DNA of 64,000 nucleotides from Eledone cirrhosa. Its lineage: Eukaryota. Of this stretch, positions 2,798 through 54,680 are shown one piece after another. The notes under the pieces are model-generated. The model was given only the letters and a program-made list of their open reading frames with translations. It was not told the DNA's origin and searched no databases. Numbering within the stretch: position 1 is the stretch's first letter; every line of letters begins with the position of its first letter. The stretch spans positions 169,074,001-169,138,000 of the forward strand of contig OZ024740.1 in the NCBI GenBank assembly GCA_964016885.1, written 5' to 3'. The position numbers were made by a program, and so were the translations under genes.

Positions 2798-4097
2798 TAC
2801 AAGGTGCATTAAACAAATATCCAATGTTTGGGCATGAAAAAAATTTTTTTTCACAACTTCGATTTAATCCCCTTCAAAATACTCACCTTGAAAGTTTACA
2901 TACTTCTCCCTGCACTTCTGCCACTGCTGGTAACAGCTCTGCAATGTATTCTCTGGAATGCTGTAGAACTCTGCCATTGCTTTTTTCATAATTTCCTCTT
3001 ATGTCAAAAATCACTTTCCTTTCAGTGTGGTTTTCAGATTGGAGAAGAGGCAGAAGTCACATCAAGAGAGTATAGAGCCTGTCAAATAAATGGTGTGTTG
3101 TTCTTGACCAGGAAAGCTTGGATTATGTGAACAGAAATGAGCACGCATTGTCGTGGTGAAGTTACCAATTCTTCACCATCCACATGTCCAGCCACTTTCG
3201 ACATACAACATCATGAAGGCAACAGATGACCTCCAGGTAGTATTCCTTATTGATTGTTTGGCCTTGTGGTGTGTATTCACGACACAATACTATGGAGTCA
3301 AAGAAATAGGTCAAATTTACCTTCACATTGCTGCGAACCGGTCATGCTTTTTTTGGCCTTGGTGATGAAAGATGTTTCCATTGCGAGGACTGGAACATGG
3401 TTTCCAGGTCATAACCATAAATCCATGTCTCATCATTAGTAATTATGGTTTTCATGATGTCTGAGTCATGGTTTGTACAGTCCAGCATGTCCTGAACGAT
3501 TTCCATGTAGAGTTGTTTCTGCTGCTCCACAAGCACCTTGGGGTTGAATTTCATTAATACTCTCTGCATGCACAGGTTCTCCGTTAGAATGGAATACACT
3601 GATCCTGTTCTTATTCCCACTTTGTGAGCAATTTCCTGGATTGTTCCATGATGGTGTTCCATGATAATATGCTGAACCTTCTCAATCGGCTCCTCACTTT
3701 GGCTTGTGGATGGCCTACCTGAGCATCTATGCTCGCCACTGAGGTGCAGCCATTTGAAGCACTTGTACCAGTCCTTGATCTGAGTTTTGCCCATAGCATC
3801 ATCACCAAAGGCCTGCTGAATTTTCTAGATGGTTTGAGCTTGAGTATCACCAAGCTTTTGGCAAAATGTGATGCAATATTTCTGCTTGATGTATTCAGTC
3901 ATTTTGCATGAAAAGGAAAATCCACTGCATGTGCACTATATGTCTGTACACTAGGCCTAACAGCTGGAAACTGATGAGGCCTACAGGCATGACAATTTTC
4001 ACACAGGAAGCATGGCATCACCACTCACCTAATGCACACAGAGCATTAGTTTTGACTGGAGAAACTAAATTTGGATACTTTTTGAATGCTCCTCATA
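2798..4097 (-). mobile_element. Degenerate mariner (Tc1/mariner) transposon, about 1.3 kb
   Basis: Frameshifted transposase (HTH ...GRPST..., TNDETWIYGYD catalytic motif); imperfect TIRs TACAAGGTGCATTAAACAAATATCCAA and TTGGATACTTTTTGAATGCTCCTCATA next to TA. Confidence 0.9.
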
Positions 4098-4509: not shown

Positions 4510-4978
4510 CAAAAAGTGCCCAGCCCACACTGTCAAGTGGTCATGTAGGTGTCATGACAAAAAGTGCTAAGCCCACACTATAAAGTGGTCATGTAGGTGA
4601 CATGAGAAAAAGCACCCAGCCCACATTGTAAAGTGGTTGTGTAGGTGATACAACAAAAAGCGCCCAGGCCACACTGTCAAGTGGTCATGTAGGTGTCACA
4701 ACAAAAAAGTACCCAGCCCACACTATAATGTAGTCATGTAGGTGACATGACAAAAAGTGCCCAGCCCACGTTGTAAAGTGTAGGTGTCATGACAAAAAGT
4801 ACCCAGCCCACACTGTAAAGTGGTTGTGTAGGTGTCATGACAAAAAATGCCCAGCCCACACTGTAAATTAGCTGTGTTGGTGATACGACAAAAAACGCCT
4901 AGTCCACACTGTAAAGTGATTGTGTAGGTGTCATGACAAAAAATGCCCAGCCCACACTGTAAATTAGTTGTGTTGGTG
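4510..4978 (+). repeat. About 49-bp minisatellite (roughly 10 copies) from the RTE-LINE 3' UTR module
   Basis: Unit aaaagtgcccagcccacactgtaaagtggtcatgtaggtgtcatgac; resumes at 5771 after a CR1 insertion and ends in the RTE tail with (GAT)n near 6012. Confidence 0.85.
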
Positions 4979-6711: not shown

Positions 6712-7065
6712 ATTATCATCATCATCATCATCATCATCATCATTTTACGTCCGCTTTTTCCTGCTTGCAAGGGTGGGACAGGAACTGATTCTGGCTTGAT
6801 TTCTACAGCTGGATGCCCTTCCTAACACCAACCTCATTTACAGTGAGTGCTGGGTGCTTTTTTTCCGTGGCGCTAACACGTCAACTTTGCAGTGGAATGA
6901 TAGGGACCCAGTTCTATCATCTCATTTCTACAGCTGAGTAAACTGGAGCAATGTGAAATAAAGTGTCTTGCTCAAGGAAACAACACATTACCCAGACTGA
7001 GAATTGAACTCACAACCTTTCGATTGCAAGCCCAATGCTCTAACCACTAAGCCATGTGCCTCCAT
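6712..7065 (-). mobile_element. CORE-type tRNA-SINE (octopus OR2-like)
   Basis: Reverse complement of the 28527-28875 element. Confidence 0.85.
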
Positions 7066-8137: not shown

Positions 8138-10490
8138 TTTGAGTCTTTTTCCAATTTCTATCTCCAGGTCTTTATACTTGCTCAATTTTTCAAATGTTTT
8201 TATAGATACATTCTTGTCTATTGGAATGGACATATCAATTAGCAGGCATACCCTCTTTTTAGAGTCCTTCAGTATTATATCAGGTCTATTTGCATCTATT
8301 TTTCGGTCTGTTTGGATGCTAAAGTTCCACAAGATTGAGATGTGATCTTTTTCAAGTATGGGAGGTGGTTGATGCTCCCACCAATTCTTTTGATGGGGCA
8401 GGTCAAATGCTTACACATTATCCAATGTATGTATTCTGCAGCTCTGTCGTGCCTGTTTAGGTATTCGGTTGGAGCTATAGGACTGCACATTGAAATTATA
8501 TGATCAATGGTCTCTGGTTGTTTTTTACATACACGGCATAATGGGTTGCATCCATTTTTTATTATGTTGGCTTGATATTTTTTTGTTGGCAGACACTGAT
8601 CTTGTGCTGATATAATCAGTCCTTCAGTCTCCGATTTCAGTCCAGAGGATGCCAACCACTGATGGGTTAAAGTTTTGTCAACATCAGGATTGTTAGCTCT
8701 TTCTGGGTATTTTCCATACAGAGGCTTTTCTTGCCATTTCTTAGGCAGTTTCTGTAGCAGTTCTTTCTTTGCAGTTACTTTTACCTGCTTTGCTTTTTCA
8801 ATGTTTTTCATTTCAGCAGTAAATGGAACTTCTGAAATTTGTAGTTCATTATTGTATCTTTGTGCATCTTTTGTAATGGAGTATGATCTTTTGGTGCTTT
8901 CGTGTTTCAAAATGAGTTTGATCATCCAATCATGTAATTCCCTTAGATATGTAGATAATCCAATTGTTGCAGTTTTCAAAGCAATATCTAACTGGATTAA
9001 CCCACGTCCTCCTTCTTTCCTAGGGAGATATATTCTTAGGGTGATGCATTCTGTGCATGGTTAAGAATTTTCTAATTTTTGTATCGAGCCTACGGATCTC
9101 TGAGTTTGACCAGTTGATGACATTGAAACTGTAGGTTACTACTGGTATGGTAAGCGTGTTTATGGCATCAACCTATTTCTTGCATTCAATTCCGTTCTTA
9201 TGATTGCTCTTACTCTATGGTAACATTCCTTCCTTATCCTTTCCCTCCGTCTCCTTCACAAACACCTAGATATTTGTAAGTTTCCTCTTGATCAAGTTCT
9301 CTTATCATATTTCCCCAATCAAGATTAGTGTCTGAACTTCTCAGCAGCTTTCCTCTGGTGAACGTGGCTTTGGCGCATTTGTCTAGTCCAAACTCCATTT
9401 TAATATCATCACTAAACTGCTTCACAGTCGATAATAGTCCTTGCAATTGCTTATCCTCTTTTGCAAATAGTTTCAGGTCATCCATGTAGAGCAAGTGATT
9501 AATGGTTTTGCCATAGACTTTATATCCATGTTTTGTTTCATTGAGCATTTTACTTAATGGTATAAGTGCAATGCAGAATAAGAGCGGTGATAAAGAGTCA
9601 CCCTGAAAAATTCCACAATTAATATTAACTTTTCCAGCTTCCAGTGATTTTTTTTCACTATTCAAAAGGAGTGTTGTTTTCCATGTCTTCATACTGAATG
9701 ACAGGAACCTCCTGACAATGGGAGATATTTTGAAAATCTCTAAACACTTTTCAATCTAACTGTGTGGCAAACTATCGAATGCTTTTTTATAATCTATCCA
9801 AGCAATTGATAGATTTTTGTGTCTATTATGACAATCTTCCAGTATCATTTTGTTAACCAAAAGCTGATCCTTACAGCCATATGAGCCACATTTACACCCT
9901 TTCTGATCATTGGGAAATAGATCATTTGTTATCAGGTGGTCATATGTATATTCAGTTAGGACTGATGTTAACATTTTATATATCGTGGTCAAGCAAATTA
10001 TCGGTCTGTAATTTTGGGGATTGTTTGTCTCATCATTCTTCGTAAGTAGGAATGTAACGCTGTTAACTAGCCATGATGGTATCTTTTATGGCTCCTTAAC
10101 CATTTCATTGTAATGTTGGGCTAACAGCTCATGAGACTCTGTGAAGGCATTTATCCAAAAATTTAGTATTTTGTCTTTCCCTGGGGATTTCCATTTGCTG
10201 GATTTTCTAAGAGCTAAACGCAGATGTTCAACTGTTATATTTTCCCATGTTTGTTCCTCAATATGAGCTGTATCTTTCATTTGTCTGTCTATCCATGGGA
10301 CATGTATATTATGAACTTTTTCTTCGGCCCAGATCTTTTCCCAGAATTCTTGCACTCCCTTCTTGGGTGGTATTGATTTAGCAATTATTGTTGACTTGCC
10401 AATTTTTCTGTAGAAGTTTCTTTGGTTGTTTTTGAACATATTATTGTCCTTATAGAATCTAGATCGTTTTTCAAATCGTCTTATACGTTA
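8134..10490 (-). mobile_element. R4/Dong-like RLE non-LTR retrotransposon, internal fragment with RT, CCHC knuckle and endonuclease
   Basis: WIDYKKAFDS, GIFQGDSLSPLLF, HLLYMDDLKL, CRVCKKQPETIDHIISMC, RPDIILKD...LIDMSIP; frameshifts and stops; (TTA)n at both ends. Confidence 0.92.
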
Positions 10491-16445: not shown

Positions 16446-17412
16446 ATTGTTCCAGGAAGTTTTTCTAGCCCTGGCTAATTTATCAAATGAATGGCTAGTT
16501 ACTGATTTTAATCCTCATGTGTGCTCATACATTTAGTCTACAGGACAATAAAATGTTTATATAATGTTACTGAGTGTTGAAGGCATAATTATTTGTATAT
16601 TGGTATCAGAAGGCCGTTTGTTGCATGCATTAAGGAGGAATCATCATGACAGTCAAAATGTATGATAACTCTGGACAAAGGTATTTCTTAGATGCCTTAT
16701 TTTACAATGATTAGATTGTATTCATATATGTAATATAAAAAGTATCGTTAAATGTCTCAACTTTTTCAACTCATCCAAAATAACTGGAAAGTATAAATAT
16801 GCATTCCTCACTCCTTTCATTATATATATGCCAAAGTGGCAAAACAACAAAAACCACCCATCCCACACTGTAAAGTGGTCATGTAGGTGTCACGGCAAAA
16901 AGTACCCAGTGCACACTATAAAGTGGTTGTGTAGGTGTCACGGCAAAAAACACCCAGTCCACACTGTAAAGGAGTCGAGTAGGCATCATCACAAAAAGTA
17001 CCCAGCACTCTCACTGAAAGAAGGAAGAGCATCCAGCTGTAGAAACCAAGCCAAAATTTGGTTCTGCATGAGCAAGACATGGTCACCTGATCTGGCATTA
17101 CTCATAATAGGATAACTCATCTAACCCATGCCAGTGTGGGAAAATGGATGTTAAATGGTGATGATGATGATGCCATGTCATTTTCTTCTTTTTTCTTATG
17201 ATAATAAAATTGTAAATACATGTACAACTGTAAATAAATAGCTAAAGCAACAATTACACTTTGATCATTTGTATCATCTATTAATGTCAATGAAGTTGCA
17301 TATAATTGGTAATTACAAATGATTTTAACATGGACTTTATTTCAAGGTAAAGGGGTTATGCAAGCATGAAAAAGTGAATGTAAAAACAATGACGATATAT
17401 ATAGATATATGA

Positions 17413-17760
17413 TGGAGGCACATGGCTTAGTGGTTAGAGCATTGGCCTTGCAATCGAAAGGTTGTGAGTTCAATTCTCAGACTGGGTGATGTGTTGTTTC
17501 CTTGAGCAAGACACTTCATTTCACATTGCTCCAGTTTACTCAACTGTAGAAATGAGATGATAGGGACTGAGGTCCTTATCATTCCACTGCAAAGTGGTCG
17601 TGGAGGTGCCACGGCAAAAAAGCACCCAGCACTCACTGTAAATGAGGTTGGTGTTAGGAAGGGCATCCAGCTGTAGAAATCAAGCCAAAATCAGTTCCCA
17701 TCCCACCCTTGCAAGCAGGTAAAAAGCAGACGTAAAATGAAATGAAATGGATGAAATGAT
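17413..17760 (+). mobile_element. CORE-type tRNA-SINE, full length
   Basis: A box TGGCTTAGTGG, B box GTTCAATTC, CORE-like ccttgagcaagacactt...ctgtagaaatgag, RTE-type tail. Confidence 0.88.
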
Positions 17761-18059
17761 ATATACATGTGGTGGGTTCATGATTGTAATGTCATGGATT
17801 CAATTCTTGAACTGGGTAGCATATTGTATTTTTCAATAAAACATTTAATTTCCTTTTACTTCAGTCAACTCAGCTGGAAATGTATATCAGCAACAGCTGG
17901 GGGTTATGCTTGTTATCAGAAGGTATCTCAATTGGGAAGAGACTTGTATTCCTAGTTGCTTAACATCAATGAAACTAGAATAAGCACTAGTCAGATGAGT
18001 CTCCTGGCTTGGGATATACTTTAACCTCAAATGGGTATCTATCTATCTATCTATCTATC

Positions 18060-19770
18060 TACTATCATAGAGAGGGTGGGGTGTAATCCCGGCTTCAGTG
18101 GGGCTCTGATAAATTTAGATCAGTCTAAGGCATTTGATAGGGTCGACTATCGATACTTGGAAGTGGTTCTCAAGGCGACCAGTTTCGGACCCGTCTTCAG
18201 AGGCTGGATCAAAGCAATGCACACCAACATCTGCTCAATGGTCAAGGTGAACGGCTACCTATCGGAGCCGTTCAATATCACGCGTTCCGTTCAACAGGGA
18301 TGCCCCCCCTCTTCCATTCTGTACGTACTAACTCTAGAGCCACTACTGCGGAAGTTGGAGCTTCTGCAGGGCATCCCGTTGGAACTGGGACTGCGGAAAG
18401 CGGCATCGGCTTATTCCGACGATGTGACAGTAATGGTGTCAGAAACCTCGGAAATTGGGGCAATCAGCAACTTACTGCAGGAATATGAAAGGCTCACGGG
18501 AGCAAAACTGAACCCGGACAAGTCCGTTGGTTTGCAACTTGGAACGTGGAGAGGCAAAGCGATGCCATCCGACAGCGTAGTCAGACACTGGACAGAAGGA
18601 CTGGGGAAATTGCTCGGGGTCTGGTTCGGTCCAAACCTCCAGGTGGAGAAAAACTGGAACGAGGTCACAGCCAAGGTATTTGCGCTCACCCAGAAGTGGG
18701 CAGAATACAAACTATCCTTGAAAGCTTGAGCGGAGGTAGCGAACACTTTCATAGTGTCCATCATCTACTACCGCTTGACCGTCGTGCCTTGTCCCTGTGA
18801 ACACCTCAGAAGATAGAACGCATGCTCTTCCAGTTCCTTTGGCAGAAGAAGGCTCCAATGGTGAGGAGATCCGTCTGCTGTCAGCACCCTTCCAACGGAG
18901 GGCTGGGAATGCCGTGGCTGATGATGCACAAACATGAGCTGAGGCTACGGCATCTCCAGGTATTCCTCACCGACCAACCGGTGTGGGCACCGTTTGTGAG
19001 ACAGGCCTTCCTGCAACTTGTCTTGCTGACGGAGCTGCAGTCCTGGGTCAAACGGAGACCGAAGAAGATGGGCGCCTGGCACATTGAACGTGCTCAGGTG
19101 CTCACAGTCCTCTGTCAAGCGGACACAGCAATCAGTGGAAACTCCACTTGACATTCTATAGAGGGTTAGTACGTCACAAGGGCAACGACGTGCTCAGAGA
19201 GACTCTGGGCGTCGAAGACGACGAACTCACCAGTCTGTTTGGTAGGACTTTCCGCCCGGGACCTATGGACAACTTCCAGAGATCCCTAGCCTGGCAGTGC
19301 TACCGAGGAACTTTACCAGTTCAAGACAAGATCTACAGGCACGGACATGTCCAAGATGCGAGCAGGACATTGAAACCATCTTGCACGCAATTGTACACTG
19401 CCCAGGCGTAACTGACCTGTGGAACTATGCAGAACAACTGCTGTCATGTATGGGACAAATCCAGTTGACTGCCGAGTCCATAGTAAGGATCAAACCGCCA
19501 ACTTCTTTCAAAAACGAAAGAGAGACGGTTTTCCTCTGTATAGTGGCTATGGTGAAAGAGGTTATATGGTGGATGAGATTGAGAGGACTGAGGACAGATG
19601 CCTTTCTCTCCGGACAACAACTCATTACCTTCTTTAGGTACTGCTTTAGAAGGAGAATCAGAGTGGAGAGAGAGGCACTGCACCCCAGTAAATTTACTGA
19701 AAGGTGGGTGAATCTAGCAAAAATGGCTCGAGTGATTGAGCCCTTCTCTGTATATAAACCTGTAGGTTGA
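18060..19770 (+). mobile_element. L1/Tx1-clade LINE ORF2 fragment (RT and C-terminal cysteine motif)
   Basis: INLDQSKAFDRVD, VQQGCPPS, AYSDD, GGLGMP, CPRCEQDIETILHAIVHC; interrupted by stops and frameshifts; higher GC than the flanks. Confidence 0.9.
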
Positions 19771-20179
19771 AGAAGAGAGCAAAAGGGAGAAACTTTTTGT
19801 AGTCAACAGTGGGAGTAGCTTTCTGAACATTTTCCATCCTATCCTTATTAGAGCTCTTATGCTCTCAGAGCACCCTCCTCCATTACTAATTGTATATATA
19901 ATCATCATCATCATTAACATCCATTTTTCCATGCTTGAATAGGATAGATGGTTTGTCAAGTTATAAGACAAGTCAGGTCTGGCGACCAACAGATCTATAA
20001 GAGAATGTAGTGGTAAACAGTTAAAACATAAAATGTTAAAACAAAGTAAACAAATAGTGAATAAACATTGTAAGAAAAAAAGACATGTTTGTTGACAAAA
20101 TATTTCTACAAATACAGGGACAATATGTGTACAGTAGAAATATTTAGGTTGAATTGAAGGTGAAGAATATATATATATA

Positions 20180-21426
20180 TGTCCCAAATGCAAAGTATGG
20201 GTGCATAAAAGATGTAGTGGGATCACAGGTAAGCTAACTAAGAACATAGATTTTACATGTGGCCGGTGCTCTGGTGCAATAAGTAGCAGCAAGTGCCCAC
20301 TAAATACTAGCTCCTTCAACTGCGCAGAGGGTTCTATAGAAATAGTGGACAGCTTCCGTTACCTGGGCGATAAAATCAGCAGTGGGGGAGGGTGCTCTGA
20401 AAGTACAGTAGCTAGAGTCAGAACTGGGTGGAAAAAGTTCAGAGAGCTTATACCACTATTAGCCGCTAAAGGGTTCTCCCTAAAAATGAAAGGCAGGTTA
20501 TACGATGCCTGCATACGAACAGCAATGCTGCATGGCAGTGAGACCTGGGCATTGTGTGCAGAGGATATACGCAGACTAGAGAGGAACGAAGCTTGCATGC
20601 TCCGCTGAATGTGCAATAGTAATATACGTGAACGGCAAAGCATAAACGAACTAAGGAAAAAATTAGAAATAAGAGGGATCAGATGTTGTTTACTCGAGAG
20701 AAGGCTACGTTGGTACGGTCACGTGATGCGCATGAAAGACGACAGCTGTATAACAAAGTGCAGGGCAATAAAGATAGACGGTAGCCACGGAGTAGGCAGA
20801 CCCAGAAAAACATGGGACGAGCTGATAAATTCCGACCTCACACGCTTACACCTCTCCAAGACAATGTCACTGGACCGAGACCTTTGGCGGTACTCAGTAA
20901 TAGAGAAGACCCGCCTTACCTAAATACAAAGTAAAAACCTACTACAGTCAGTAGGCATCTCTATCAAAACACACCCCCGTCCCACCACCTCCACCCCATC
21001 CACACCGCCCCTTTCAATGTAAAGTTATGTTGGTCCCACAACATCCAGGCCGAAACAAATGAGATCGTGTAGGTGTCACGACAAAAAAACACACAGTCCA
21101 CGCTGTAAATGTGGCCGTGTAGGCAACACGGTAAAAACCTCCCAGCCCCCACACTGTAAATGTGGTTGGTGTTAGGAAGGGCATCCAGCTGTAGAAAACC
21201 CGCCAGACAGTCCACGCTGTAATGTGGCCGTGTAGGCAACACGGTAAAAACCTCCCAGCCCCACACTGTAAATGTGGTTGGTGTTAGGAAGGGCATCCAA
21301 CTGTAGAAAACCCGCCAGACAGTCCTATGCAAGCAAGACAACCACTCTTGCCTCAAGTGGGAAAACCCCCCGTCCAAACCCATGCAAGCGTGGAACACGG
21401 ACGCTAAACCTGATGATGATGATGAT
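20180..21426 (+). mobile_element. RTE-clade LINE 3' portion with 3' UTR
   Basis: FRYLGD, GWKKFREL, MLHGSETW, RRLRWYGHVMRM, GRPRKTW; tail ends in (GAT)n. Confidence 0.88.
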
Positions 21427-22440: not shown

Positions 22441-22720
22441 ATTCATTTCATTTCATTTTTCATTTCATTTTACGTCCACTTTTCCCTGCTTGCAAGGGTG
22501 GGACGGGAACTGATTTTGGCTTGATTTCTACAGCTGGATGCCCTTCCTAACACCAACCTCATTTACAGTGTGTGCTGGGTGCTTTTTTGCCGTGGCACCT
22601 CCACGACTACTTTGCAGTGGAATGATATGGACCCCAGTCCCTATCATCTCATTTCTACAGTTGAGTAAACTGGAGTAATGTGAAATAAAGTGTCTTGCTC
22701 AAGGAAACAACACATCACCC

Positions 22721-22722
<2 letters not shown>
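22441..22722 (-). mobile_element. CORE-type SINE, 5'-truncated
   Basis: Reverse complement of 28596-28875. Confidence 0.85.
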
Positions 22723-22759
<37 letters not shown>

Positions 22760-23022
22760 GGAAAAAATGAAACGATATTTCATTTCCCACTCTTAGTACG
22801 GCTGTTACTTAAATATAAGTATGTACACGTACATACACATATGTATACCGACGTACAGTAGTATGTATATATATATATACATACATGCACACATATATAT
22901 ATGCACGTATGGATTCACCGAACATTTATTATAATGCTCGGTGTGTTTGTAAACAAACATCCCGTATTAAGCCGTAGTGTCTAGCAACCACCGTTGCTCG
23001 TTTGTTCAACACTGACAAAGGA

Positions 23023-23065
23023 ACGCTGTACTAGTTTCAAGCTTGTTAGCTATCGTCAACAACGT
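23023..23065 (-). ncRNA. Minimal hammerhead ribozyme (family B, unit 1)
   Basis: Minus strand reads ACGUUG-UUGACGA-u AGCU aaca AGCU u-GAAA-CUAG-UA-CAGCGU; C3 changed to U, stems intact, GUA triplet. Confidence 0.7.
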
Positions 23066-23423
23066 ATACCTTCCTGCCAGATTGTTGAACGTATATACTT
23101 ACCTTATGCATATTAACGGCTGAGTAGCCCAATTTGCATATCGAGTGGGTTAATCGGTCGGATGCACCGAAAACGATATTTCATTTCCCACTCTTAGTAC
23201 GGCTGTTACTTAAATATAAGTATGTACACGTACATACACATATGTATACCGACGTACAGTAGTATGTATATATATATATACATACATGCACACATATATA
23301 TATGCACGTATGGATTCACCGAACATTTATTATAATGCTCGGTGTGTTTGTAAACAAACATCCCGTATTAAGCCGTAGTGTCTAGCAACCACCGTTGCTC
23401 GTTTGTTCAACACTGACAAAGGA

Positions 23424-23466
23424 ACGCTGTACTAGTTTCAAGCTTGTTAGGTATCGTCAGCAACAT
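23424..23466 (-). ncRNA. Minimal hammerhead ribozyme (family B, unit 2)
   Basis: Minus strand reads AUGUUG-CUGACGA-u ACCU aaca AGCU u-GAAA-CUAG-UA-CAGCGU; canonical core, one stem II mismatch. Confidence 0.72.
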
Positions 23467-23610
23467 ATACCTTCCTGCCAGATTGTTGAATGTATATACT
23501 TACCTTATGCATATTAACAGCTGAGTAGCACAATTTGCATATCGAGTGGGTTAATCGGCCGGGTGCACCGAAAACGATAAACGGAAAAAATGAAACGATA
23601 TTTCATTTCC

Positions 23611-23647
<37 letters not shown>

Positions 23648-27559: not shown

Positions 27560-28960
27560 ATTAAACCTTTCCATCATAATTTTATATAAGATGCTGAAAA
27601 CATTAACTCCATAATGAAAAAGGAGTTATTTTACTAAATCCTCCAAACTCTTGATTATTTTTCTTGTCATACGGCTACTAGGGCAGCTGAAATGTGATCT
27701 GAGCTTAAAATACCTATGGCAAAACTTATGTATGCCTACAAGACATTAACATATTGTATATACTATCATATGCCTTTATTCTGAATCACTGTGAGAGTGC
27801 TTCTGTTAATATATTTATATATAACTTATTTACTTCAGTTGAAAATTGACAAGGTGAAACGCACATCCTCGAAAATGGTTTAAACTGTTGTGGAACTAAC
27901 TTATATATATCATCACTGTCATCATTGATTCTTGGATGTGTTGACAGGTGTGGATGCATACATTAGCAAAAATATAGAATTTGAAAAATACACACACACA
28001 CACAAACATATATATGGGTTAGATGGGTTGTCCTGTTGTGGGCAATGTCAGGTCAGGTAACCATGTCTTACTCATTCAGAACTGATTTTGGCTGATTTCT
28101 ACAGCTGGATGCCCTTCCTAACACCAACCACATTTACAGTGAGTACTGGGTGCTTTTTTACCGTGGCACCTCCACAACCACTTTACAGTGTGGACTGGGT
28201 GATTTTTGTTGGGACACCTACACGACCACTTTACAGTGGGAAGGAGGTGGGGGCCATACTTGCATTAAACCTTTCCATCATAATTTTATATAAGATGTTC
28301 AAAACATTAACTCCATAATGAAAAAGGAGTTATTTTACTAAATCCTACAAACTCTTGATTATTTTTCTTGTCATACGGCTACTGGGGTAGCTGGAACGTG
28401 ATCTGAGCTTAAAATACCTATGGCAAAACTTATGTATGCCTACAAGACATTAACATATTGTATATACTATCATATGTCTTTATTCTGAATCACTGTGAGA
28501 GTGCTTCTGTTAATATATTTATATATGGAGGCACATGGCTTAGTGGTTAGAGCATTGGCCTTGCAATCGAAAGGTTGTGAGTTCAATTCTCAGACCGGGT
28601 GATGTGTTGTTTCCTTGAGCAAGACACTTTATTTCACATTGCTCCAGTTTACTCAGCTGTAGAAATGAGATGATAGGGACTGGGGTCCCTATCATTCCAC
28701 TGTAAAGTGGTCGTGGAGGTGCCACGGCAAAAAAGCACCCAGCACACACTGTAAATGAGGTTGGTGTTAGGAAGGGCATCCAACTGTAGAAATCAAGCCA
28801 GAATTAGTTCCCGTCCCACCCTTGCAAGCAGGGAAAAGCGGACGTAAAATGAAATAAAATGAATGAAATGAATGAATAACCCATTTACTCAAGTTGAAAA
28901 TTTACAAGGTGAAACGCACATCCTCGAAAATGGTTTAAACTGTTGTGGAACTAACTTATA
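27560..28960. repeat. Local direct duplication of about 350 bp (27560-27908 and 28263-28960); second copy split by a SINE
   Basis: cattaaacctttccatcataattttatataagatg...gtggaactaacttatata occurs twice. Confidence 0.85.
28527..28875 (+). mobile_element. CORE-type tRNA-SINE, full length (reference copy)
   Basis: tRNA-like head with A/B boxes, CORE-like body, hairpin ATGATAGGGAC-tggg-GTCCCTATCAT, 3' tail shared with the RTE LINE. Confidence 0.9.
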
Positions 28961-42417: not shown

Positions 42418-42952
42418 TTAGAATTGGTGCTCTGAAATAGCGATATATATATGAATGTATATATATAGTGTATTTTGCAATATACTGTATGCTTAATTAA
42501 AAGCATTTTGAAGACCTTACGCTATTGTTTTAAAGTAGTGACAATGTCACTTACTTCTTTTTTCAGTAAACAAAGGGAGATAAGCTGACAGATCTCTGTT
42601 TCGTACTGATGGTACTCCTCAGAACTTACCATTCCCTTTGCCTGCTGAAAATTATGAATGTTGGATTCTTATAGAATTCCAGTAATAATTGGGAACTGAT
42701 TATACAGAGCGGTTGCCGGTCAAGCAAAAATTGAAAATTAGAATTGGTGCTCTGAAATAGCGATATATATATATGAATGTATATATAGTGCATTTTGCAA
42801 TACACTGTATGCTTAAGTAAAAGCATTTTGAAAACCTAACGCTATTGTGTGACATAGTCACTACTTTTAAACAATAGTGTAAGGTCTTCAAAATGCTTTT
42901 AATTAAGCATACAGTGTATTGCAAAATACACTACATACACATTCATATATAT
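42418..42952 (-). mobile_element. Hammerhead-bearing repeat family A: 320-bp unit, partial second unit and inverted segment
   Basis: ttagaattggtgctctgaaatagcg at 42418 and 42738; 42850-42950 is an inverted copy of the unit's first part; begins next to (TA)n. Confidence 0.75.
42579..42630 (-). ncRNA. Minimal type I hammerhead ribozyme (repeat family A), intact
   Basis: Minus strand reads GGUAAGUU-CUGAGGA-GUAC caUca GUAC-GAAA-CAGA ga UCUG-UC-AGCUUAUC: 8-bp stem I, complete core, 4-bp stem II, GUC cleavage triplet. Confidence 0.85.
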
Positions 42953-43989
42953 GGGTACACAAGAGATGTAGTGGGATCTCAGGAAGCTTAATTAAGAATG
43001 AAGGCTTCACATGCAGCAGCTGTACTGGGACAGCAAGCAGCAAACAGCCACAGGAAACAAGTACCACCAATCTCTGGGAGGGCCCTGTAGAAACAGTAGA
43101 CAGCTTCTGCTACCTAGGTGACCGAATTAGCAGCGGAGGTGGGTGTTCAGAAAGTACAATAACTAGGGTAAGAACGGGATGGAAGAAGTTTAGGGAACTA
43201 CTGCCACTGCTAGCTGCAAAAGGCTTCTCCCTCAGAATGAAAGGCAGACTGTATGATGCGTGTATCCGAACAGCGATGTTGCATGGTAGTGAGACCTTGG
43301 CGCTGAAGGTGGAAGACTTACGTAGATTAGAGAGAAACGAAGCCTGCATGCTCCGATGGATGTGTAACAGTAATATACGTGAACGACAAAGCATAAATGA
43401 ATTGAGAGAGAGACTGAGCATAAGAGGAATCAAATACTGTGTGCAGGAGAGGCGGTTGCGCTGGTATGGACATGTGATGCGTATGAAGGATGACAGCTGC
43501 ATAAAAAGGTGCAGAGCAGTAGAAGTCGATGGAAACCGCGGAGTGGGGAGACCCAAGATGACCTGGGATGAGGTGATAAAAGCCGACCTTACCCAATTAC
43601 ACCTCTCAAAGGCAATGACACATGACCGTGACCTCTGGCATCATGCAGTAATACAGAGTACCCGACCTCCCGTGGGTACAAGCTGAAGCATATAGACAAT
43701 ATGCCCCCCCCCCCACCGCAAGGTGGTCGTGGAGGGGCCACGGCAAAAAAGCACCCAGCCCACACTGTAAAGTGGACGTGTAGGCGCCACGAAAAAGCAC
43801 CCAGCACTCACTGTAAATGAGGTTGGTGTTAGGAAGGGCATCCAGCTGTAGAAATCAAGCCAAATCAGTTCCTGTATGAGCAAGGCATGGTCAGCCGACC
43901 AGACACTGCCCACAACAGGACAACCCGTCTAACCCATGCTAGCGTGGAAGAACGGACGTAAAACGGGGATGATGATGATGATGATGATG

Positions 43990-53889: not shown

Positions 53890-54680
53890 TTTCATGACAG
53901 GAAAAATGACTTGAGGTGGTGGACAGGTTTGTGAATCTCAGAAGTACACTTAGTAGAGATGGTAACTTCCATGCTGAAATAAATCACAGGATTGCAAAAG
54001 CAAGTCTTGCCTTTGGGAAGCTTGAGAAGTGAGTCTGGTCAGATCAGGGTATCACAAGAAACACAAAACTCTTTGCCACTGTTCTTACAGCCCTGCTATT
54101 GGTGGACAACTTACAGGCATCACATAAGGCAGCTGTAATATACATGAATGGCAAAGCATAAATGAACTGAGAAACCAGGCATAAGAGAGATCAGATGCAG
54201 TGTGCAGGAGAGAATGCATTGGTATGGCATGTGATGCATATGAAGAATGACAGCTGTATAAAAAGGTGCAGGGCACTCAAAGTTCAAGGAAGCTATGGTG
54301 TAGGAAGACTAGGGTAGAGGTGATAAAAGCTGACCTTGCACAATTGCATCCCATGAAGCGATGACACAGGATCAAGATTTTTGGTATTATGCAGTGATAC
54401 AGAAGACCTGCCTTCCCATGTGCATGAGTTGAAGCATACATCTTGTTTACTCTGTCCCTGACACACATCCCCAGATTTACCTCTCCAATTCCTACACACC
54501 TTCTCCACCCAAGTCCCCAGCCCACACTATAAAGTGGTCGTATAGGTGTCACAACAAAAAACGCCCAGTCCACACTGTAAAGTGGTTGTGTAGATGTCAT
54601 GACAAAAAGCACCCAGCACACACAGTAAATGTGGTTAGTAGAAACCAAGTCAAAATCAGTTATGTATGAACAAGACCTGT
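53890..54680 (+). mobile_element. Mosaic of RTE LINE fragments in TMEM192 intron 2
   Basis: EINHRIAKASLAFGKL-type remnant, then RTE 3' coding remnant and the 49-bp module. Confidence 0.65.

What the first reader, a model, noticed from the sequence alone, without database searches (positions are those of the whole stretch)
22755..23614. Tandem double-hammerhead array predicted to release a 401-nt monomer
Seen: two hammerheads on minus exactly 401 nt apart (GUA triplets at 23029-23031 and 23430-23432). One unit junction lost 21 bp between aaacgata direct repeats, so the full unit is 422 bp. The copies carry different lesions (C3U versus a stem II mismatch), so their consensus is fully canonical. 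The palindromic ACUAGU stem III would let the two motifs pair as a dimeric hammerhead. Known: this is the layout of non-LTR retrozymes. Inference: a >2-mer with a short terminal redundancy fits rolling reverse transcription of a circular RNA.
Basis: partly seen in the sequence, partly recalled or inferred. Interest (0 to 1): 0.85.

Follow-up and report, generated by a model that had tools for sequence, protein, structure and literature searches.

The report
Decayed Penelope-type hammerhead retrozyme dimer
Two head-to-tail copies of a roughly 420-base non-coding repeat, each carrying a self-cutting 'hammerhead' RNA motif, sit in a TA microsatellite of an animal genome; this is a known kind of many-copy parasitic element (a retrozyme) with the end structure of Penelope-like retrotransposons, and this copy has damaged ribozymes, so it probably releases little RNA circle.

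Summary
On the minus strand lie a 422-nt unit, a 401-nt unit and a ~37-nt terminal repeat, between two (TA)n runs. Each unit has a type I hammerhead, with cut sites 401 nt apart (2 chance hits in 150 shuffled windows).

It belongs to a many-variant family present in all four runs laid. The listed variants spare the catalytic core except N7 and keep stem I paired, so it is a new member of the animal non-LTR retrozymes.

The rolling-circle inference is weak. The ~37-nt redundancy matches the 30-40-bp Penelope 'tail', and 33 contigs of one run join (TA)n at this same end, not at permuted ends. Both hammerheads carry lesions private to this locus: one misfolds, the other has C3U. In the double-hammerhead fold each active site keeps one lesion. 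The 401-nt size is a local deletion form, so efficient release of a 401-nt monomer here is unlikely.

Unexplained: all 8 differences between the units lie 5' of the cut site, none in the next 258 nt (P about 0.002). Cleavage, circles and the helper element are not shown.

The parts
23614..23644 (.). (TA)n run at the element's 5' side (target microsatellite)
   Evidence: T23614 is shared with the element's first base
23193..23614 (-). Unit A, 422 nt, intact length
23578..23614 (-). First copy of the 37-nt tail segment (predicted hairpin); position 23577/8 is where other copies join (TA)n
   Evidence: table 7 (X1, 33 contigs)
23419..23473 (-). Hammerhead A (type I): core 23460-23454 and 23439-23430, stem II 23452-23441 with private C.C mismatch (23451), private U2.5 (23465); cut site 23430|23429; predicted to misfold
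23029..23429 (-). Cut-site-to-cut-site monomer, 401 nt, strongly self-paired
   Evidence: z -8.2, 0 of 100 shuffles as stable; 273 nt of unit B without the TA-rich arm: z -3.4, 1 of 150
23213..23313 (-). TA/TG-rich long hairpin arm within unit A (copy in unit B at about 22812-22912)
   Evidence: source of the sub-threshold miRNA-family matches
22792..23192 (-). Unit B, 401 nt; lacks 21 nt between 8-nt direct repeats (single remaining repeat at 23178-23171), which removes the 3' arm of the tail hairpin
23018..23072 (-). Hammerhead B (type I): private C3U at 23059, intact stem II; cut site 23029|23028; stems I and II predicted to form (pair probabilities 0.85-0.99)
22755..22791 (-). 3'-terminal 37-nt tail (intact form, identical to 23614-23578)
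   Evidence: tail concept
22723..22754 (.). (TA)n run at the element's 3' side

Best explanation
This is a decayed genomic copy of a multi-copy, non-coding, hammerhead-bearing tandem retroelement (animal non-LTR retrozyme) that is moved by the RT/GIY-YIG protein of an autonomous Penelope-like element (PLE), most likely a microsatellite-targeting one such as Neptune. SHOWN: the tandem structure, the family and its variants, the conserved hammerhead fold, a recurrent 3' end at the tail joined to (TA)n, and lesions private to this copy. INFERRED: tandem copies are transcribed on the minus strand; intact family members cut after GUA, probably as double hammerheads because helix III is only 2 bp with a 2-nt loop, giving ~422-nt monomers that a host ligase may circularise; the PLE protein nicks (TA)n DNA and starts reverse transcription at a fixed site at the end of the 37-nt tail hairpin, copying back through one or more units. 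For the template of this insertion I put about 0.45 on an uncut linear tandem transcript, 0.3 on a circle primed at the fixed site, 0.15 on several different monomers joined at the cut site, and 0.1 on later DNA-level duplication or conversion. This locus itself should self-cleave poorly, and its 401-nt monomer is a local deletion form, not the family's unit.
For: Motifs far above chance. Family: 5870 contigs laid in X1, 35,716 reads in X23, 11 contigs in X5, 4 in X4, covering three coded organism labels. Of the 40 variant rows shown (of 69), the only one in the catalytic core is N7. The loop II change keeps the RNnA motif. Stem I changes track each other: G1.3U 46%/93% against U2.3 to G or A 43%/94% in the two X23 read sets, and a loose-end consensus at 23462 carries several of the 5'-strand changes together. 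The family majority has an intact stem II (98-99%) and C2.5 (94-99%). C3U is not among X1's four G>A rows. U.U at the base of helix II occurs in the axolotl retrozyme HHR_Amex2. The recurrent (TA)n junction at 23577 is the largest X1 loose end shown (33 contigs). PLE tail of 30-40 bp, (TA)n bias and inverted 5' copies are described. An intact head-to-tail junction with the 21 nt present is seen in X5 record 20. A Neptune/Nematis-type PLE (RT + GIY-YIG, C-x4-C-x2-C linker) with an ACUAGU-helix-III hammerhead downstream was found in L079.
Against: No autonomous partner was found: no host genome is held, tblastn of the L079 protein found nothing in the window, and the unit shares no DNA similarity with L079. 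Only 17 of 388 loose-end rows were shown, so other (TA)n junctions may exist. Unit position 1 lay at the edge of the laid stretch, so its recurrence as a boundary is untested. In X1 the stem I pair frequencies do not match (51% against 19%). Covariation is read from frequencies, not from single reads. Three of X1's 32 variant changes and many of X23's were not shown and could lie in the core. A natural U3 core variant is reported as slower but presumably functional, so C3U need not be dead. RNAfold cannot score 2-nt loops or tertiary contacts. The one-sided clustering of substitutions is not explained by any simple version of this model.
Confidence: 0.75

Rival explanations
1. One reading: this dimer self-cleaves to a 401-nt monomer that circularises, and the locus arose by rolling reverse transcription of one circle from an arbitrary start.
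For: More than two units with a short terminal redundancy. Highly self-paired monomer. circRNAs are shown for coral, mussel and axolotl retrozymes, and circle-templated RT is the published hypothesis.
Against: Recurrent 3' end at the tail. One-sided substitutions (P about 0.002). The middle tail copy has the deletion while both end copies lack it. Each catalytic centre keeps a lesion. In Xenopus only 1 of 9 predicted dimers cleaved in vitro. For the anole PLE uncut RNA was the main RT substrate.
Confidence: 0.1
2. The locus is a mosaic of different RNA monomers: RT started at the tail of one RNA, reached its ribozyme-cut 5' end and continued on other monomers (template jump or a ligated hetero-multimer), so sequence classes change at the cut site.
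For: All 8 substitutions lie in the 148 nt between tail end and cut site (post hoc P 3e-4; 7e-4 weighted by G+C). Against X4 record 9, 5 are private to unit A and 3 to unit B, while 23320-23429 is unchanged. The unchanged segment has 12 CpG sites against 6 in unit A's changed segment.
Against: One locus and a post hoc test. Gene conversion between the units after decay, or assembly polishing, gives the same picture. The middle monomer would still need 3 substitutions and 1 deletion all in its 164-nt part (P 0.03-0.07).
Confidence: 0.15
3. The unit is simply the pLTR of an autonomous PLE, and the tandem is a by-product of truncated insertions, not a self-sustaining retrozyme.
For: Tail, (TA)n target and opposite-strand joints (13 of 15 joints) are PLE features. 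Retrozymes are sisters of pLTRs in Xenopus. Loose ends at 23402 and 23462 show diverged relatives whose context is unknown.
Against: The hammerhead has canonical helix sizes (6 bp + extension, 4 bp), not the min-HHR form of most animal PLEs. No ORF of 100 aa or more overlaps the element. A head-to-tail unit junction also occurs in X5.
Confidence: 0.1
4. Local duplication of unique sequence with a chance hammerhead-like motif, or an assembly artefact.
For: The two units are identical over 258 nt. No listed run held more than 0.70 of the words. The tandem at this locus was not checked against reads.
Against: A multi-variant family with core conservation; chance rate about 1e-4 per unit length; 8 substitutions and a deletion distinguish the units.
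Confidence: 0.03

Closest known systems
Animal non-LTR retrozymes (Cervera & de la Pena 2020, PMC7229834; parts 2-4 of 6 read; supplement unreadable)
   Same: Tandem non-coding repeats of 150-450 bp with a type I hammerhead, G+C below 50% (37.7% here), strongly self-paired monomer, many copies. A ~20-nt indel variant occurs in coral. U.U at the base of helix II with a 2-bp helix III occurs in axolotl HHR_Amex2.
   Different: Helix III loop is 2 nt here (tetraloop in HHR_Amex2). The unit is slightly longer than mussel's 350-390 bp. The parts read do not describe a PLE tail, a fixed 3' end or (TA)n targeting. Cleavage and circRNA are untested here.
Non-LTR retrozymes as non-autonomous PLE derivatives (Li, Clavereau & Pollet 2026, bioRxiv 10.64898/2026.07.22.740005; parts 1-3 of 5 read)
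   Same: Dimer of hammerhead-bearing units; PLE origin proposed.
   Different: Their evidence is co-occurrence and pLTR homology, mainly in vertebrates. Here the evidence is end structure (tail, fixed end, target) and no pLTR homologue could be sought. This locus fails their 'active' definition, because unit B lacks a complete core.
EN+ Penelope-like elements: anole Poseidon PAc (Frangieh et al. 2024, PMC11167929; parts 1-2 of 4); Neptune/Naiad (Craig et al. 2021, passages); Adineta Penelope (PMC3846280, passages)
   Same: 30-40-bp tail on one end, fixed RT start in a stem-loop downstream of the hammerhead, AT-rich or (TA)n target, inverted neighbours.
   Different: No RT/GIY-YIG ORF. Canonical rather than minimal hammerhead. 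The tail ends 274 nt after the cut site, further than in PAc (RT start 111-118 nt into an ORF whose cut site is at +26).

Membership tests
Type I hammerhead (canonical animal form) | Core CUGANGA, GAAA, UH | tested here: met
   Copy A complete; copy B has C3U, private to the locus; family rows shown vary only at N7 (40 of 69 rows shown)
Type I hammerhead (canonical animal form) | Helix I 6 bp, helix II 4 bp, helix III 1-2 bp with short palindromic loop | tested here: met
   against the definition; majority form folds stems I/II with probabilities 0.45-0.94 and 0.9-1.0
Type I hammerhead (canonical animal form) | G10.1-C11.1 closing pair | tested here: not met
   U.U in both copies; the same exception is known in axolotl HHR_Amex2
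Type I hammerhead (canonical animal form) | Loop 1/loop 2 contact motifs (RNnA loop 2; 5' U and 3' pyrimidine in loop 1) | tested here: met
   Loop 2 AACA or AAUA; internal loop 1 UAU; sequence match only, and one subfamily changes the last loop 1 base
Type I hammerhead (canonical animal form) | Self-cleavage after H17 | not testable with these tools
   Needs in vitro transcription
Animal non-LTR retrozyme | Tandem repeats of 150-450 bp, each with a type I hammerhead | tested here: met
Animal non-LTR retrozyme | Non-coding, G+C below 50% | tested here: met
   No stop-to-stop frame of 100 aa or more overlaps it; G+C 0.377
Animal non-LTR retrozyme | Absence of PBS and PPT | not tested
   Not searched explicitly; the ends abut (TA)n directly
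Animal non-LTR retrozyme | Many copies in the genome | tested here: met
   Many variants and subfamilies, and (TA)n junctions in 33 contigs; depth is not a copy number; no second copy in this window
Animal non-LTR retrozyme | Strongly self-paired monomer | tested here: met
Animal non-LTR retrozyme | Expressed as linear and circular monomer RNA | not testable with these tools
   Needs RNA data with ends or divergent RT-PCR
Animal non-LTR retrozyme | Target-site duplication | tested here: inconclusive
   Both flanks are (TA)n; the sequences beyond belong to two different repeats
'Active' retrozyme as defined by Li et al. 2026 | Two consecutive units with complete hammerhead motifs | tested here: not met
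   Unit B has C3U; unit A's stem II is broken
PLE-mobilised non-autonomous element | 30-40-bp tail on one end | tested here: met
   About 37 nt
PLE-mobilised non-autonomous element | Fixed 3' end (internal RT start) | tested here: met
   33 X1 contigs join (TA)n at 23577; only 17 of 388 loose-end rows were shown
PLE-mobilised non-autonomous element | Inverted neighbouring copies | tested here: inconclusive
   None at this locus; 13 of 15 joints are opposite-strand, 5 of the 13 at 23584-23588, mostly RAD reads with 1-5 starts that could be chimeras
PLE-mobilised non-autonomous element | Homology to the pLTR of an autonomous PLE in the same genome | not testable with these tools
   No genome held; no PLE ORF in the window
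Autonomous PLE | RT + GIY-YIG ORF | tested here: not met
PLE minimal hammerhead (min-HHR) | Unpaired base between 9 and 10.1, G10.1-C11.1, long helix II | tested here: not met
   Symmetric U.U plus 4 bp; definition

The most novel reading that the evidence does not exclude
The locus is a fossil of reverse transcription across ribozyme-cut RNA ends: a PLE protein primed at the tail hairpin, copied one RNA to its hammerhead-cut 5' end, and went on through monomers from other loci, so sequence classes switch at GUA|C. If that pattern holds over many copies, it would be direct genomic evidence that hammerhead-cut (or re-ligated mixed) monomers are the templates of retrozyme and PLE spread. That is an open question, since in vitro the anole PLE did not need cleavage.
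Probability: 0.15. Interest if true: 0.65.

Novelty: new member of a known kind. Interest (0 to 1): 0.32.

Why it matters
As a retrozyme it is one more family of a widespread, described kind. Its value is that a canonical-hammerhead retrozyme shows the insertion signature of Penelope-like elements (37-nt tail, fixed 3' end, TA-microsatellite target). This supports the PLE-helper hypothesis from the mechanism side, and it means 'permuted starts' is the wrong test for such elements. The family is abundant and has subfamily-diagnostic SNPs on both sides of the cut site. That makes it good material for asking whether cut monomers, circles or uncut tandem RNA are the RT template.

Tried and rejected
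No host genome was available, so copy number, end statistics and the helper PLE could not be obtained directly.

No RNA holder was listed; this is no evidence on expression.

Rfam has no hammerhead match; the miRNA-family rows are the TA-rich arm and are far below threshold.

Exact family patterns found 0 stretches in metagenome contigs and 0 in viral contigs. 80 of 123 motifs were bulged min-HHR-like, showing that ACUAGU helix III is a common design and not a family mark.

Intron idea: a perfect donor at 23506-23498, a branch-like motif in loop II and an acceptor-like motif at 23424-23413 would enclose the hammerhead (chance about 0.013 per unit for the donor). It is not supported, because the donor GT is GA in 36% of X1 depth and 32%/90% of X23 reads.

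A-to-I editing as the source of unit differences was rejected: none of the 8 private changes is A to G; 7 of 8 go from G/C to A/T.

The pile-ups of read ends in X23 at 23532-23535 and 23602 coincide with AATT sites and are read as RAD cut sites.

The 21-nt deletion was not among 15 joints or 6 indel rows, but it lies at the edge of the laid stretch, so that is weak.

The host lineage was not pinned. One LINE ORF gave 39-66% relatives, the named ones from Elysia, Priapulus and Ostrea. An octopod host is my recall of repeat style, untested.

Literature searches listed no paper that describes a cephalopod retrozyme. The O. vulgaris repeat paper has 0 main-text hits for ribozyme, hammerhead or retrozyme. 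The unreadable supplement of PMC7229834 and the closed bioRxiv supplements could list this family.

Look-ups of earlier findings by sequence, place and two word sets were empty.

Full report
OBSERVATION. On the minus strand the element runs 23614 to 22755: unit A (422 nt), unit B (401 nt) and a 37-nt repeat of the unit's start. It sits between two (TA)n runs, 23614-23644 and 22723-22756, which blur each end by 1-3 nt. The GUA triplets are at 23432-23430 and 23031-23029. Unit B lacks 21 nt between 8-nt direct repeats and differs from A by 8 substitutions. A relaxed type I hammerhead descriptor finds exactly these two motifs in the window, against 2 hits in 150 shuffled windows. Rfam does not pick them up. 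No frame of 100 aa or more overlaps the element. The window is AT-rich, microsatellite-rich animal-type DNA with RT fragments and a tRNA-headed SINE family. The host was not identified.

THE RIBOZYME. The fold is the canonical animal type I form: helix I of 6 bp, an internal loop, a 4-bp extension, helix II of 4 bp, and helix III of 2 bp around a 2-nt loop, palindromic. Helix II is closed by U.U, as in axolotl HHR_Amex2, which cleaved 22% in an hour as a monomer and much better as a dimer. Loop 2 fits RNnA and loop 1 has a 5' U and a 3' pyrimidine.

THE FAMILY. Nineteen of 24 listed runs hold the stretch or part of it, 4 with at least half of the words. I laid four runs on 23320-23614: X1 and X23 (organism A), X4 (B) and X5 (C). 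All four cover every bin: 5870 contigs, 35,716 RAD reads, 4 contigs and 11 contigs. Depth is not a copy number, but the spread of variants, indel subfamilies and diverged loose ends shows a multi-copy family. Of 40 variant rows shown (of 69), the only one in the catalytic core is the free position N7. The loop 2 change is C to U. In stem I, G1.3U (46% and 93% in the two X23 read sets) is matched by U2.3 to G or A (43% and 94%). In the extension, A-U to U.G and G.U to A-U changes rise together. X1 does not show the first match (51% against 19%), and these are frequencies rather than read-level linkage. By my tally 29 of X1's 32 changes are in the rows shown. All four G>A rows are accounted for, so C3U is under 4% there; the three unseen rows could lie in the core. 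X5 record 20 shows a head-to-tail junction with the 21 nt present, so 422 nt is the family's unit.

THIS COPY IS DAMAGED. The majority base at 23451 and 23465 is unit B's (94-99%). X4 record 9 differs from unit A at six places and has unit A's base where B differs. So five changes are private to A and three to B. Copy A is predicted to fold into a competing hairpin (stem I pair probability 0.01-0.02; penalty 5.4 kcal/mol). Copy B folds correctly but has U3 opposite G8. C3-G8 is a base pair that covaries to U3-A8 in nature, and C3G abolishes cleavage in the anole PLE. A natural U3 variant is said to be slower but presumably functional, so I call C3U weakening rather than lethal. In a double hammerhead, core A would cut site B and core B site A, so the lesions do not complement. 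That fold costs 13 kcal/mol over the MFE (tertiary contacts not modelled). As a base rate, 1 of 9 predicted Xenopus dimers cleaved in vitro. Efficient release of a 401-nt monomer from this locus is therefore unlikely.

HOW IT MOVED. PLE insertions usually carry a 30-40-bp tail on one end, and Neptune and Naiad favour microsatellites, (TA)n in Naiads. In the anole PLE the tail is the stretch between two fixed internal RT start sites in a stem-loop downstream of the hammerhead, the protein nicks AT-rich DNA, and uncut RNA is the main substrate. Here the redundancy is about 37 nt and folds as a hairpin. The largest X1 loose end shown is a (TA)n junction at 23577, the tail end, in 33 contigs (17 of 388 rows shown). 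Thirteen of 15 joints join opposite strands, five at 23584-23588, as inverted PLE neighbours would; most are few-start RAD reads and may be chimeras. A loose structural scan returned L079: a 685-aa RT + GIY-YIG frame (Pfam E 1e-8 and 2e-4, the second just under its cut-off) with a Neptune/Nematis-type cysteine linker and an ACUAGU-helix-III hammerhead about 940 nt downstream. It shows that such PLEs use this helix III, but it shares no DNA similarity with our unit and is not the helper. PLE mobilisation is thus inferred from end structure.

WHAT IS UNEXPLAINED. All 8 substitutions fall at unit positions 52-164, and the following 258 nt are identical (P about 0.002 for so long a run). They all lie between the tail end and the cut site (post hoc 3e-4 to 7e-4). 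Seven of eight go from G/C to A/T, as in genomic decay, yet the segment after the cut site has 12 CpG sites and no change. One circle copied twice and decaying evenly does not give this. Gene conversion, assembly polishing, selection on the downstream part (the protein-binding region in PAc lies downstream of the hammerhead), or RT joining different monomers at the cut site all could. I cannot separate them with one locus.

COMPARISON AND VERDICT. It works like, and meets the testable features of, animal non-LTR retrozymes (PMC7229834). Cleavage and circRNA are untested, and this locus fails the 'active' definition of Li et al. 2026. It is not an autonomous PLE and its hammerhead is not the minimal PLE form. 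My six literature searches listed no description of this family, but the supplement of PMC7229834 could not be read. An earlier, unchecked note of this scan describes a similar TA-targeted tailed repeat in another genome; it is a lead only. Verdict: a real, ordinary-in-kind element, a new member of a known kind; interest 0.32.

Noticed in passing
window 23506-23413 (minus) and the same in unit B: Perfect splice-donor consensus, a branch-like motif in hammerhead loop II and a pyrimidine-rich acceptor would define a ~90-nt intron around the hammerhead. The donor is lost in one subfamily, which instead has a perfect hairpin there and an 8-nt insertion.
   Followed up: partly
window 22501-22722; full copies at 6776-7061 (-), 17421-17703 (+), about 28530-28816 (+) and others: A tRNA-headed SINE family with at least 8 copies of the body in the window. 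The copy next to the element lacks its ~60-nt tRNA-like head, which is replaced by (TA)n plus the element.
   Followed up: partly
L029 1-1153: A metagenome contig with a ~1075-nt terminal repeat and a hammerhead at 753-783 whose core and U.U-closed stem II are 90% identical over 31 nt to ours but whose stem I is different and fully paired; short telomere-like repeats follow it.
   Followed up: partly
L079 2-3094: Autonomous-looking Neptune/Nematis-type PLE (RT, cysteine linker, GIY-YIG) with a type I hammerhead at 3001-3031.
   Followed up: partly
L001-L114: 80 of 123 motifs are minimal PLE-type hammerheads with a bulged base and ACUAGU helix III, several in inverted pairs, in what look like animal host DNA inside metagenomes.
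   Followed up: no
loose ends at 23402, 23462, 23490: At least two diverged subfamilies share the hammerhead region but differ up- or downstream; one could belong to a longer, autonomous element.
   Followed up: no
window 8296-10487 (-), 18025-19770 (+), 20153-20923 (+), 42907-43686 (+): Broken LINE-type ORFs (RVT_1 in two, a PHD finger in one); clade names such as R4/Dong, Tx1 and RTE are my recall, not tested.
   Followed up: partly
window 4510-4978, 16848-17005, 28125-28238, 54516-54655, 21093-21325: A dispersed 48-nt minisatellite family and a related 112-nt tandem, apparently tied to the SINE body.
   Followed up: no
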